Assembly (NCBI RefSeq): GCF_009914755.1
Contig: NC_060934.1
Length of the DNA stretch: 64,000 bases
Strand: one strand, 5' to 3'
Source of the DNA: the human T2T-CHM13v2.0 reference genome, Homo sapiens
In this document: positions 29,023-57,803 of the stretch, in pieces
How the letters are laid out: each line of letters opens with the position of its first letter
Position numbering within the stretch: position 1 is the stretch's first letter
Notes under the pieces: model-generated
What the model was told of the DNA's origin: nothing
Seen by the model: only the letters and a program-made list of their open reading frames with translations
Database searches by the model: none
Position numbers and translations under genes: made by a program

Positions 29023-29145
29023 TTAAGATAAGCAACTAAGTCTGAGATCTTTAGCCCAGGAAGGAGTAGGTAAGGTGTAGCCTGCTTTCTCGGCTGCCGA
29101 ATGCTTCTGGAAAGGATGCTGAAGAACTTGCTGGAGAAGATGCAC
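29023..29145 (-). pseudogene. SelO-like terminal coding exon VHLLQQVLQHPFQKHSAAEKAGYTLPTPSWAKDLRLSCLS*
   Basis: tactag| acceptor, 41 codons ending TAA; LxxPF...PxWA...SCSS-like tail with TGC (Cys), not TGA (Sec); minus-strand AATAAA at 29008-29013 and 28956-28961. Confidence 0.92.
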
Positions 29146-32100
29146 CTAGTAAACAATGCGAGCAGGTAAATGTAGATTAGAATTACTCAGGACCCTGATG
29201 AATTTCTCCATTTCTAAATGGCAAGGTCAATTTAAAATGTTTAAAAATGTTTATACTTTGGGAGGCCGAGGCAGGCAGATCACTGGAGGTCAGGAGTTGG
29301 AGACCAGCCTGGCCAACATGGTGAAACCCCGTCTCAACAAAAATTACACAAATTTGCCAGACGTTGTGGCACACATCTGTACTCCCAGCTACTCGGGAAG
29401 CTGAAGCAGGAGAAACGCTTGAACCTGGGAGGCAGTGGTTTCAGTGAGCCGGGATTGTGCCACTGCACTCCAGCCTGGGTGACAGAGCTAGACTCCTTCT
29501 CAAAGAAAACAACAACAACATCAACAAAAAAAAAGTTTATACATTTTATGCTTTATGGAAAACCTCAACTCTAGTTGTTACTTGGAGTTTCTATTATTCC
29601 ACAGAAAGTTCCTTAAGAGTACTTTCTAACTTTTTGTACTAAACTAAGTGAATGAAAATGTATATTTTAATCTTAATATCCCTGTACAGCATTTAGGCAA
29701 TTGTAATTTTCTAAAATATTTACAGAAATAAAAGGATGTCAATGATTTAGTCTTTCCAAATGAAGGCCATGAATTCCAGCTCATGCTGCTTCTTACTGGG
29801 AATTTGGCCCCATGGTAATAAACTGAGGCACTGAAAAACACACCTCTTTCCACAATCAATCTGATATCAAAATGTATATTTTCAGTGCTTTTGCTATTTC
29901 TTGGGTATTACGAAGGAAATGCTTAGCTATCATAGAAAAGGTGGGTGATTATTTATACTAAGAAATTAAAGGTGGGAGTTCAAGTAGAACATATTATTGT
30001 GTCACTAGTATTTTAAATATGAAGATTGCATCATCATAAATACAGGGCTTTGGAGCCAATCTTAGCACTTCTCCCTGGGTACTTTCTATACACTTCTTTT
30101 TTTAAAAGTTGGCTGTATACCTATTGGTCTCACCTACCTACTAGTTTAAGAGCCCCTCTAATTAATCAGCAACTTGCATTGAATGGATTCTCAAGAAATG
30201 TTTGAGGAAAGAAGATAAATACCAGTTCCATGTGTAAAGGATTGCATGTAGAAAGGTTTGACAAAATGTTGTTCTTCTCCTGCATGAGAAGTTGACATTT
30301 AGTTACCTTTCTGGTTCTGTTTCCCTGGTATCCTGATAAGGCGGTAGGTCAACTCTATCACCATACAGCATTGCCCACAAAGGACAAGTAACTTCTGGAC
30401 TGGAAGAACTGCAAATACCTGATAGGATGCGTTGGGCCTTCCTAAGCATGGTGACTCCTACCATGAGGCAGGTCTCTTGTGAGGATCTGGAAATTATGCC
30501 TATGGAGTTCTTACAAGAGACACTGCTTTCTGCAGAGCCTGAAGCTTCTAAGACAGGGCTGCCCTGCACGGTCACAGTGGGACTCTCAGATCCTTGCACC
30601 TGAGTGAAGCTGCCGTGCCTTACCGCTGGTGTGGACTGCTCCAAGTTCCCCTGCACACGGAGAACCTGGTGCTGCCCTGTCGGGAAGCTTTGTTCCTGTG
30701 CTCTGTCTCTCTCAGCTGGCTGGGGCCAGGTGTGTGGCCTGTGATAGTCGTTTGAATCTGAATGTTTACTGGACCCTAAGAAAACACCTCCACCCACCCT
30801 GCCCCAGAGGCGCTGCCTCATTACTCATATATAATTTTGAGGAAGGGATGGAAAGAAGCGGGGGGATAAAAGATATAGAAGAAAGGAGGCACAGGCCAAC
30901 AAAACAGCTTACTGAACACCGTGTAGTTTCCCCTGTGGAGACAAATTTATCTAATGATAAATGTTGAGGGATCTCCCTTCTCTTTGTTTCTCCTTCATAT
31001 CATAAAAAGATTCTATTTAAAAATATTATGTTTTCTGAAATGAAAACCTAGAATTGTCAGGCTAATTAAACTACTGAGATAAAAAGCTAATACAAGCTCC
31101 AAATTAGAAAGAGCAAAATGGTTTCTCTCTCATGCCAACTCTGATCAGTGGCTGATGATGTCAGGGCATGCTGTGATGAGAATGGTTCTGAGGCTATGAC
31201 CGGTTTGAGACAGAAAGAGGGTCATGACTATCAATAAAGTACCCTCCGGGCATGGGACAGGAGAGTGGCAGCATGAGAGCCAGGGCCATTCCTGTTGTAA
31301 AAAATACATAACGTGCAATGCATTTTTAAACAGCTAATGATGAAATATTTGAGGCAGAAAACATATACAGAATAACATTATGGACACCTGTGTATCCTCC
31401 ATTCAACTTCAGCAATAAAATACTTTCAATACTGTTGAAGCCATATTGTATGATATTGATAGGATTCTGCTTATTTTTATACTATATTCAAGTAGTAACA
31501 CATTGTGTGAATTCTTTTGCCATTTGCTTGTTTTGCTTAACATTATAAGTGAGATTTGGCTGGGCACAGTAGCTTCGCCTGTAATCCCAGCACTTTGGGA
31601 GGCCAAGGCAGGAGGATCCCTTGAGCCTGAGAGTTCTAGACCAACCTGGGCAACATAGTGAGACTCTGTCTCTGCAATAAATAAAAACATTAGCCAGGTA
31701 TGATGGTGCTCGCCTGTAGTCTCTGAGAGGCTGATGGGGGAGGATCGCTTGAGCCTGGAGGTGGAGGCTGCAGTGAGCTATGATTATGCCACTGCCCTCC
31801 ACTCTGGGTGACAGAGTGAGACCCCATGTCTAAAAATTTTCATTTTAATTGTGAGAGTCATTGATGCTAATACATGTAGCTCTAGTTTATTCGTCTTCAT
31901 TGCTGTCAGGATTAAAGTGGACCCAGGTTGGTAGTACCATGGATCCATGCCCGAAAGGAGCAAATGCTACTGCCCTCTGGAGACATATACCCTCAAATTC
32001 CATTTCACTAGATTTCAAACAGAGACTAAAATCCACAATTCCAAAACACAAACAATAAACAGCAGAATCAGACCCTTGAAGGGTTAAATAATGTATATGT

Positions 32101-32318
32101 GTGTGTTTTAAAATAAGTATTTAAAAATGTTTATAAAGCATAAATAGAAAATATGAGAAAATAATTCAACTGATAAACCAAAGAGAGACCAAGCAGGGAG
32201 AAATCTAGGAAGCTGGTGTTGGCAATGGTATAATTTAGCATGTCTGCAAACAAGTGTCTTCAAAATATAATAGATTTTTAATTAATAAAAATGAACTGAG
32301 AGAAGTCAACCATCTTAG

Positions 32319-32398
32319 GTCTGAGAAATCATTCCTTTCTGCTTTCTGCACTGCAGATTCTGCCATCCAGTTCCTCAGCACATACCTAGGGTTAACAG
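32319..32398 (-). pseudogene. SelO-like exon (T)VNPRYVLRNWMAESAVQKAERNDFSD
   Basis: tttaag| acceptor; hallmark NPxYVLRNWxA; donor reads GAC|ctaaga (GT lost). Confidence 0.93.
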
Positions 32399-55600: not shown

Positions 55601-56790
55601 TAAATTGATGTTCAAGTTTGTCACAGGTGACCCTTAAAGTCCTCCTAATGGCTTGACTACTTTGTCTTTTAGTCTACAGGACTTTGAAGAAGGAAGGAAA
55701 TAACTAACCCAGCAAACCAGAACCTGATGCTATAATAATTGTAATAGTTAACATGTTAAGCACTTTACATGTATTTCCTAATTTAATCCTACACCAACCC
55801 TACGATACTTTACTATTTGTCTTAAAATTTGTTCCTGAGCAAACCAGCATCACCAAAAAGCCCCCAAACCACCAGAGAGTGTTAATCTTATCTAGCTTAC
55901 AGGAAAGTCACAGTCACAACAATTGGTCCTATGTTCCCATTTCTGTTTTTAATTAGTCAGATACCATACCCTGAATTTGTTGCTTAATTTCTTGCTTAAC
56001 ATCTTGCTTAATTTCCAGAATGTTCCTTAATTCCTTCCTGATTTCTGCAGCACAAATAACACCCCCAAGGAATCTTGATTTACTCCCATTCTAGTAGTTG
56101 TACATTGTTCTATGGCTATCTTGATATAATTATAATCTATTTCTCCTTCTTTTTATCTGTTTTATATTAATTTATTTTTTGAGACAGGGTCTCACTCTGT
56201 CACCCTGGCTGCAGTGTGGTGGCACAACTTTGGCTCACTGAAACCTCTGCCTCCCAGTCTCAAGCGATCCTCCCTCTTTAGCCACCCAACTGGCTGGGAC
56301 CACAGGCACGTGTCACCATGCCTGGCTAATTTTTGTAGAGAAGGGTTTCACCATGTTGCCCAGGCTGATCTTGAACTCCTAGGCTCAAGCAATCTGCCTG
56401 CCTCGGCCTCCCAAAGTGCTGGGATTATAGGTGTGAGCGACTGCACCGGGCTTGTCCTTTTATATTGACACATTGTACTACTTCATTTTGCCAAAAATGC
56501 CAAAAGTGCACTGAATGAGTTCTCTAGCAATAATCCACAGAAATTTTATATTTATGCTGCCCCAGTATTCTCAATTCCATTCAAAGAATTAGACTCTAGC
56601 TTTAGCACAGCAAGAAATCACATCAGCTAATCTATAAACATCTTCTGATGGCATATTCCTTTAGACACATCTTGTTGAACTCCCAATGCACTAATTTAAA
56701 ACTTAATGCAAAATAATTTCTTTAGTAGGACAGCATTTCCATCAAATAATTCTATTTGCATAAGGGAAGTTATGATGTTGCTACTCTGAC

Positions 56791-56919
56791 CTGGTTGCCC
56801 CCATATCGGTGAGCCAGTGGAACGGATCCAAACACTGTCTTTTCGCCACTTACAAGGTGGATAAAATCATCTGTTTCTGAAACAGATAAATCAAGGTCCA
56901 AAATATTTTCTAGAACTTC
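56791..56919 (-). pseudogene. SelO-like exon EVLENILDLDLSVSETDDFIHLVSGEKTVFGSVPLAHRYGGNQ
   Basis: cctcag| acceptor, CAG|gtcaga donor, 129 nt, open; ends in the SelO PxAxxYxGHQ motif with H>N. Confidence 0.92.
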
Positions 56920-57684
56920 CTGAGGCAGGAAAAACAAATTTACAAACCGATGTCATCTTTCACTTTTTTGGGTTTTTTTTGTTTTGTTTTTTTTGAGACA
57001 CAGGCTCACTCAGTTACCCAGGCTGGAGTGCAGAGGCACAATCATGGCTCACTGCAGCTTTAACCTCCTGGGCTCAAGTGATCCTCCCGCTTTGGCCTCC
57101 TAAAGTGCTATGATTACAGGATGGAGCTAGGGCACCCGGACTAATAATTTTTAAGAATGAGACTTAATGGAAGAAAATTCAAAGAATAAACCTCTTCTGA
57201 AAATATATTATTAATTTTTTTTCATAAGAGATGTACCATACTGTCTATGTTTATGCTATTTGGGAAAAATTAGTTCTACTAGATGGTTCTAAAATTTTTA
57301 TGGCTTTCTTATGATGCATGGTAAAACAATATTTTTCCTAGGACAAATTCATTTAAGAAACTACAAAAAAAGTCCTATTTTTAGCCCAAATTCATTTATG
57401 TCATGGGAGAAAAATTTAGAATTAGAGACCATTAGATAAAGGATATGTAAGATAACAATTTAACTCATTTTCCTCTTTTTCACAAAAGCATATTTTTCTT
57501 GTAAGACAACTTTAAGTTGAAACTGAGTAAGTATCAGTGTGATTTATAAGAATGACATCTCCAAGTATTTGAATTTTAAACACAGTCATTTATAATTAGA
57601 CTAATAATATTAACTCTAAAAAATTATTTTAAACAAATATTTTAGTGAGTTAAGTATTTGTGTTGTGAAAAACTAATGCCTAAC

Positions 57685-57803
57685 CTTTGAAACTGCTACA
57701 AGACGTACTCTTGATTTGAAAGGAGTTCAGAAAAAGATACATAAAATACAGTTTTCCACTTTATGAACATAATTTTCTTTAACAGGATCAACAGGCAACA
57801 TAG
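57685..57803 (-). pseudogene. SelO-like exon (A)MLPVDPVKENYVHKVENCILCIFF*TPFKSRVRLVAVSK
   Basis: ttttatcag| acceptor, AAG|gttagg donor, 119 nt (phase 1 to 0); in-frame TGA at 57727-57729 where the family has the PTP motif. Confidence 0.88.

What the first reader, a model, noticed from the sequence alone, without database searches (positions are those of the whole stretch)
29023..57803. A lost vertebrate SelO paralogue (Cys-type AMPylase) can be reconstructed exon by exon
Seen: ten exons, almost absent from the ORF track, with near-intact SelO motifs. Lesions: TGA 57727-57729, +1 frameshift 47391-47395, TAA in the DYG motif 45954-45956, GT>CT donor loss at 32317-32318, GHQ>GNQ, and H>R before GVCNTDN. 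Knowledge: SelO proteins are pseudokinases that bind ATP in a flipped orientation and AMPylate proteins; SELENOO ends in Sec-Ser-Ser, while this copy has Cys (TGC). Inference: this is a unitary-type gene loss of a second SelO enzyme. The low lesion density suggests loss within primates or not much earlier.
Basis: partly seen in the sequence, partly recalled or inferred. Interest (0 to 1): 0.7.

Follow-up and report, generated by a model that had tools for sequence, protein, structure and literature searches.

The report
Dead gene for secreted-type SelO enzyme
This is the already catalogued broken human copy of a second SelO enzyme gene that lemurs, dogs, birds and turtles still keep; its intact versions look built for the secretory pathway, so they are likely an overlooked class of AMP-transferring enzyme that monkeys, apes and mice have lost.

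Summary
The ten exons and all six lesions are real. The locus is the known unitary pseudogene SELENOOLP (ENSG00000227932), remnant of the Cys-type paralogue SELO2 described in 2012. Three partial duplicates on 10p12 and a processed copy on chr9 date the loss: a frameshift and seven changes at conserved sites are shared with a duplicate 7.5-7.9% diverged, while galago, lemurs and tarsier keep coding orthologues. Loss most likely lies on the simian stem. What seems new: intact orthologues keep every SelO catalytic residue and a SelO fold, but start with a signal-peptide-like stretch followed by an N-x-S sequon kept in 40 of 40 and 31 of 32 held-out sequences with a freely changing middle residue. 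SELO2 is therefore likely a secretory-pathway AMP-transferase (or NADase), not a mitochondrial one. This is a prediction; no localisation predictor or experiment was run.

The parts
62055..62301 (-). Exon 1 (aa 1-83; signal-peptide-like stretch, N-K-S sequon, Cys61). Start ATG>ATA, TGA at 62218-62220.
57685..57803 (-). Exon 2 (aa 83-122), TGA at 57727-57729 private to this copy
56791..56919 (-). Exon 3 (aa 123-165), GHQ>GNQ private to this copy
54540..54830 (-). Deletion junction near 54825: exons for aa 166-261 (G-loop, Lys197, Glu220) are gone. The upstream duplicate lost aa 207-261 by a different deletion
51525..51612 (-). Exon aa 262-291, Arg267>His
48851..48920 (-). Exon aa 292-314
47384..47457 (-). 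Exon aa 315-338; +1 frameshift 47391-47395, A329V, M332K, G335S shared with the upstream duplicate
45920..46003 (-). Exon aa 339-366 (catalytic loop NTDN and DYG); TAA 45954-45956 private to this copy
44582..44711 (-). Exon aa 367-410
41113..44581 (-). Interval from which aa 411-509 are missing; 41144 is also the junction of the duplicated unit 41144-62649
41069..41112 (-). Exon aa 510-525
32319..32398 (-). Exon aa 525-551, donor GT>CT at 32318-32317
29023..29145 (-). Last coding exon (aa 552-591), ends Cys-Leu-Ser-stop; used by the annotated SELENOOLP transcript
717..845 (-). Second copy of the last exon (ends Cys-Ser-Ser-stop, 1-base deletion near its start), inside lncRNA LOC102724202

Best explanation
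The window holds the dead human copy (SELENOOLP) of SELO2, a Cys-type SelO paralogue whose intact orthologues keep the whole SelO active site and are predicted to be secretory-pathway enzymes that would AMPylate proteins in the ER/Golgi lumen or outside the cell. Shown: identity of the locus, its lesions and deletions, conserved catalytic residues, SelO fold of the model, hydrophobic N-terminus and conserved sequon. Inferred: the N-terminus is a signal peptide (cleaved or an anchor), Asn52 carries a glycan, Cys61 forms a luminal disulphide, ATP binds flipped and AMP goes to Ser/Thr/Tyr as in SelO. The gene likely died on the simian stem about 40-55 million years ago, before 10p12 segmental duplications scattered its pieces; it now makes no enzyme.
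For: Locus: last-exon peptide identical to ENSG00000227932. Active site in 40 orthologues: Lys197 40, Glu220 38, Arg267 37, Arg274 37, Asn345 40, Asp354 40, Cys589 40 of 40, mapped on P. syringae SelO and PMC8097203 passages. Model pLDDT 91.7, residues 2-29 and 38-58 under 50; best 9 structural matches are SelO/YdiU, E about 1e-42. Sequon within 12 residues before Cys61 in 40 of 40 with 9 different middle residues, in a stretch whose other columns are mostly 20-70% conserved; the only other near-universal sequons have 1 and 3 middle residues; 31 of 32 in proteins fetched later. Hydrophobic N-terminus in 5 of 6 deep members of the SELO2 clade against 12 of 131 other SelO representatives. Dating: with the upstream duplicate it shares the frameshift and 7 changes at 138 conserved sites, against 1-4 in five intact euarchontans; the copies are 7.5-7.9% apart; coding orthologues named from galago, mouse lemur, ring-tailed lemur and tarsier, none full length from a monkey, ape, mouse or rat among the 120 rows listed in each.
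Against: No SignalP/TargetP-type predictor was available; my hydrophobicity cut-off (10-residue Kyte-Doolittle 2.0) was met by only 18 of 32 held-out proteins. Placental N-termini are Arg-rich, nearly free of acidic residues and as amphipathic (0.36-0.59) as human SELENOO's (0.48). [quoted passage not shown] The metal-binding Asn345 itself lies in an invariant sequon, which a luminal enzyme would have to leave unmodified. The gene shares a promoter region with mitochondrial PDSS1. No activity has been measured for any SELO2. The mouse-lemur record has Glu220>Ala, and the tarsier model lacks aa 239-291. Protein searches list 90%-identity clusters and only the best 120 rows, so a simian orthologue could be hidden. 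Dates rest on recalled primate divergence values and small counts.
Confidence: 0.7

Rival explanations
1. SELO2 is a second mitochondrial SelO, redundant with SELENOO, and was lost for that reason; the N-terminus is a mitochondrial presequence.
For: Arg-rich, acid-poor placental N-termini with a hydrophobic moment like SELENOO's; head-to-head with PDSS1; general mitochondrial prediction in PMC3281104.
Against: Marsupial, monotreme, turtle, lizard, bird and deeper N-termini have short n-regions and uncharged hydrophobic cores; a sequon kept with a free middle residue has no use in mitochondria; human SELENOO has no sequon in its first 90 residues.
Confidence: 0.12
2. SELO2 is secretory but works mainly as an NAD+ hydrolase (NAD+ to NMN and AMP) rather than a protein AMPylase.
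For: SelO NADase activity needs the C-terminal Cys-Ser-Ser tail (PMC13391479 passages), which 40 of 40 orthologues keep at Cys589; the top structural match is YdiU with NAD. SELO2 has Pro370 (39 of 40) where 51 of 137 broad SelO rows have Cys, so the tail Cys is kept without that likely disulphide partner.
Against: All ATP-phosphate-binding residues are also kept; the two activities coexist in SelO; nothing measured.
Confidence: 0.13
3. The gene was intact until the 10p12 duplications broke it, or was lost separately in New World monkeys and catarrhines.
For: Most stops are private to single copies; the aa 207-261 exons were lost by two different deletions in two copies; duplication junction 41144 lies 30 bases from an exon.
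Against: The frameshift and 7 conserved-site changes are shared by the two longest copies; R96H is in three copies.
Confidence: 0.2

Closest known systems
SELENOOLP / ENSG00000227932, GENCODE unitary pseudogene (Mudge et al. 2019, PMC6886504 supplements)
   Same: [quoted passage not shown]
   Different: That row gives no exon map, copies or function. Coding orthologues exist in strepsirrhines, tarsier, squirrels, chinchilla, degu and kangaroo rat, so the losses are narrower (likely simians and muroids).
SELO2 of Dudkiewicz et al. 2012 (PMC3281104)
   Same: Cys-type metazoan paralogue in chicken, dog, horse, cow, missing in humans; C-x-x end.
   Different: The passages seen give no signal peptide, glycosylation or pseudogene for SELO2. 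Not the same gene as the Sec-containing fish SelO2/SELENOO2.
SelO/YdiU AMPylases (PF02696; human SELENOO, P. syringae 6EAC, E. coli YdiU)
   Same: Fold, catalytic residues, C-terminal Cys/Sec-Ser-Ser.
   Different: Cys not Sec; signal-peptide-like start, sequon and invariant Cys61 in an N-terminal extension; Pro370 instead of the Cys common in other SelO.
FICD, the ER AMPylase; FAM20-type secretory kinases (the latter recalled)
   Same: Predicted compartment; nucleotide transfer to luminal proteins.
   Different: FICD has a Fic fold; reviews list only FICD and mitochondrial SelO as metazoan AMPylases.

Membership tests
SelO family (intact orthologues) | SelO/YdiU domain above family cut-off | tested here: met
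   NF000658 490, 483, 488 bits vs cut-off 431 for 3 of 4 proteins; the tarsier model with a gap scored 412. PF02696 precomputed.
SelO family (intact orthologues) | Lys, Glu, two Arg, Asn and Asp of the flipped-ATP site | tested here: met
   37-40 of 40 at each site; mapping through with a one-residue offset that I inferred.
SelO family (intact orthologues) | Kinase-like SelO fold | tested here: met
   Predicted model pLDDT 91.7, target TM 0.92-0.93 to 6EAC and YdiU.
SelO family (intact orthologues) | AMP transfer or NAD+ hydrolysis | not testable with these tools
   No assay; no paper found on SELO2 activity.
SELENOO (selenoprotein O proper) | Sec codon and orthology to chr22 SELENOO | tested here: not met
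   TGC in the window, Cys in 40 of 40 orthologues; far closer to SELO2 than SELO2 is to SELENOO.
SELO2 clade | Groups with dog/horse/bird SelO-like proteins apart from other SelO | tested here: met
   Exons 74-90% identical to named SelO-like proteins; clade of 13 rows, local support 99 (FastTree, human SELENOO not in the tree).
Unitary pseudogene | Disabled, no working copy in the genome | tested here: met
   All SELO2-like matches among 40 genome hits are broken copies on chr10 and chr9; that search warns that weak matches may be missing.
Unitary pseudogene | Synteny with an intact gene beside PDSS1 in other species | not testable with these tools
   No other vertebrate genome is held; GENCODE curators classed it unitary against a ferret model.
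Secretory-pathway protein | N-terminal signal peptide or anchor | tested here: inconclusive
   Hydrophobicity only: 5 of 6 vs 12 of 131, 18 of 32 held out; no dedicated predictor.
Secretory-pathway protein | Sequon kept by selection with free middle residue | tested here: met
   40 of 40 and 31 of 32.

The most novel reading that the evidence does not exclude
SELO2 is a third class of animal AMP-transferase, a SelO pseudokinase re-routed to the secretory pathway early in animal evolution, which modifies luminal or secreted proteins (or cleaves NAD+ there) in most vertebrates and has been overlooked because humans and mice lost it independently.
Probability: 0.6. Interest if true: 0.7.

Novelty: new variant of a known kind. 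Interest (0 to 1): 0.5.

Why it matters
The pseudogene and the paralogue are known; that part is ordinary. The reviews read here count two animal AMPylases, FICD in the ER and SelO in mitochondria. A conserved SelO with secretory targeting would add a third, in livestock, pets, birds and reptiles, testable at once by expressing a dog or chicken cDNA. It would also add an enzyme to the short list of biochemical losses of the simian ancestor, with dated copies as a built-in clock.

Tried and rejected
First structure model from 40 close orthologues failed (pLDDT 41) and was not used. The IQ-TREE run did not finish; FastTree was used. I first read the loss of aa 207-261 as one deletion shared by two copies; junction sequences show two different deletions, so it is not used for dating. 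ESM Atlas gave only SelO clusters. The TGA at the terminal Cys codon of the chr9 processed copy was considered as a Sec relic and rejected: 40 of 40 orthologues have Cys and that copy is 22% diverged. The chr14 hit (16 bits, below cut-off) and a chr17 hit (E 5.3) were not followed. No SelO mention in the one supplement searched of PMC10195156 or the main text of PMC7555810. No complex prediction was run.
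Full report
Observation. The ten exons and the six listed lesions are in the sequence, on the minus strand. Profiles of 19 segments built from 32 orthologues score the ten exons at 21-88 bits, with the best chance match in the window at 1.7 bits or less. Eight segments, residues 166-261 and 411-509 of the 591-aa galago protein, have no match in the window: 396 of 591 codons remain. The first block holds the G-loop, Lys197 and Glu220. 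The segment borders inside 426-509 are mine, so the number of lost exons there is not established.

What it is. [quoted passage not shown] The parent gene is SELO2 of PMC3281104 (passages seen): a non-selenoprotein paralogue in chicken, dog, horse and cow, lost in humans. It is not the fish SelO2/SELENOO2, a Sec-containing duplicate (PMC3316567 and PMC13134290, passages).

Other human copies. A genome search with the galago protein gave 40 matches (stricter first look, weak hits may be missing): SELENOO on chr22, this copy (A), copy B at chr10:26.623-26.647 M (exons 1-5 and aa 262-410 in part), copy C near 26.98 M (exons 2, 3, last), copy D near 27.35 M (exons 1-3), extra last exons at window 717-845 and 26.602 M, and an intronless processed copy at chr9:111.2006-111.2027 M that still carries both blocks missing from A. 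A 55-residue query for aa 207-261 found only SELENOO (it also missed the decayed chr9 copy, so it is a weak test), and the chr9 DNA for aa 411-509 found no chr10 match. A lost aa 166-261 and B lost aa 207-261 by different deletions. B and D share a junction of window 41144 to 62649 and a 2-base deletion in exon 1.

Date of loss. A and B differ by 7.5-7.9% (Jukes-Cantor, 6,612 and 12,518 sites); C and D are 8.5-9.9% from the others. At 138 positions conserved in at least 94% of 35 non-euarchontan orthologues, A and B share 7 changes (R96H, F302Y, A329V, M332K, G335S, Y364C, L392F), 7 are private to A, 16 to B and 5 differ in both; galago, mouse lemur, tarsier, colugo and treeshrew show 2, 3, 2 (of 115), 1 and 4. 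A and B also share the +1 frameshift, absent from the chr9 copy. With recalled human-lineage distances (about 3% to the catarrhine, 5% to the simian, 10% to the haplorhine ancestor) this points to about 40-55 million years ago; counts are small. Consistent with this, named coding orthologues come from galago, mouse lemur, ring-tailed lemur and tarsier, colugos, treeshrew, rabbit, squirrels, chinchilla, degu and kangaroo rat, and none of full length from a monkey, ape, mouse or rat among the best 120 of 158, 3916 and 147 hits. The only simian name is a gorilla model that splices exon 3 onto ODAD2-like sequence.

How the intact enzyme likely works. Galago SELO2 aligns to P. syringae SelO over residues 97-591 (E 5e-109). 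The residues that a review names for flipped-ATP binding and catalysis (PMC8097203, passages) map to Lys197, Glu220, Arg267, Arg274, Asn345 and Asp354, kept in 40, 38, 37, 37, 40 and 40 of 40 orthologues; the tail Cys589 in 40 of 40. A model from 137 sequences has pLDDT 91.7, with residues 2-29 and 38-58 under 50, and its 9 significant matches are all SelO/YdiU. AMP transfer is thus inferred from family knowledge; NAD+ hydrolysis, which needs the Cys-Ser-Ser tail (PMC13391479, passages), is the alternative.

The N-terminus. Marsupial, monotreme, turtle, lizard and bird orthologues begin with a short charged stretch, an uncharged hydrophobic core and small residues, the layout of a signal peptide (layout recalled). 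An N-x-S/T sequon lies within 12 residues before an invariant Cys61 in 40 of 40 orthologues, with nine middle residues and a shifting register, where neighbouring columns are poorly conserved; the mean over all such windows is 8% and the only other near-universal sequons have one and three middle residues. In 49 proteins fetched afterwards, 17 lacked an aligned Cys61 (fragments or other first exons) and were dropped; 31 of the other 32 have the sequon. In a FastTree of 137 unnamed SelO representatives of 440 aa or more (of 150 listed) plus 7 named orthologues, the SELO2 clade has support 99; 5 of its 6 unnamed members have a hydrophobic N-terminus against 12 of 131 outside (Fisher p 9e-5; rows are not independent and the cut-off is mine). 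Against: only 18 of the 32 held-out proteins pass that cut-off; placental N-termini are as amphipathic as SELENOO's presequence; the catalytic Asn345 lies in a sequon; PDSS1 next door is mitochondrial; the mouse-lemur record has Glu220>Ala. No dedicated predictor was run.

Novelty. Known: the pseudogene, the paralogue, its absence from humans. Not found in print: secretory targeting of SELO2, the simian-stem date, the duplicates and the processed copy. Searches: SELENOOLP (1 paper, listing only); SELENOO/paralog/SelO-like; SelO/AMPylation/SELO2; four gene ids and 'SelO-like' (6 papers); selenoprotein O with signal peptide, secretory pathway, pseudokinase (1 unrelated listing); unitary pseudogene terms; five phrases for secreted or luminal AMPylase (0 papers). 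Passages of two reviews and a preprint name only FICD and SelO. Sreelatha 2018 and most subscription papers are not held, preprint supplements are closed, and automatic database annotation of signal peptides was not checked, so prior notice cannot be excluded.

Verdict. Interest 0.5.

Noticed in passing
G000:C9:111200570-111202700 (L011:6570-8700, minus strand): Intronless processed copy of SELO2 with an Alu-like insertion after the DYG codons; 22% from the window exons; the only human trace of aa 207-261 and 411-509; TGA at the terminal Cys codon.
   Followed up: partly
window 717-845; G000:C10:26602469-26602594; G000:C10:26978405-26978521: Three more copies of the last exon; the one in the window forms the last exon of lncRNA LOC102724202.
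   Followed up: partly
window 1958-13105: Array of diverged repeats of roughly 0.6 and 1.9 kb units under LOC105376461 and FAM238B, also present upstream and near chr10:26.97 M at 70-90% identity.
   Followed up: no
G000:C10:27350169-27355698 (L027): Copy D; a gorilla protein model (P0004) joins ODAD2-like sequence to SELO2 exon 3, hinting at a chimeric transcript from a duplicated segment.
   Followed up: no
window 54420-54745: LTR-like repeat remnant (MST/MLT1 type by recall), whole here, cut by the deletion in copy B.
   Followed up: partly
proteins P0168, P0173: Two unnamed SelO representatives outside the SELO2 clade also begin with strongly hydrophobic signal-like stretches, suggesting more than one secretory SelO lineage.
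   Followed up: no
window 62055-62732: Exon 1 and PDSS1 share a CpG-island promoter region; parts of it were copied with duplicates B and D.
   Followed up: no
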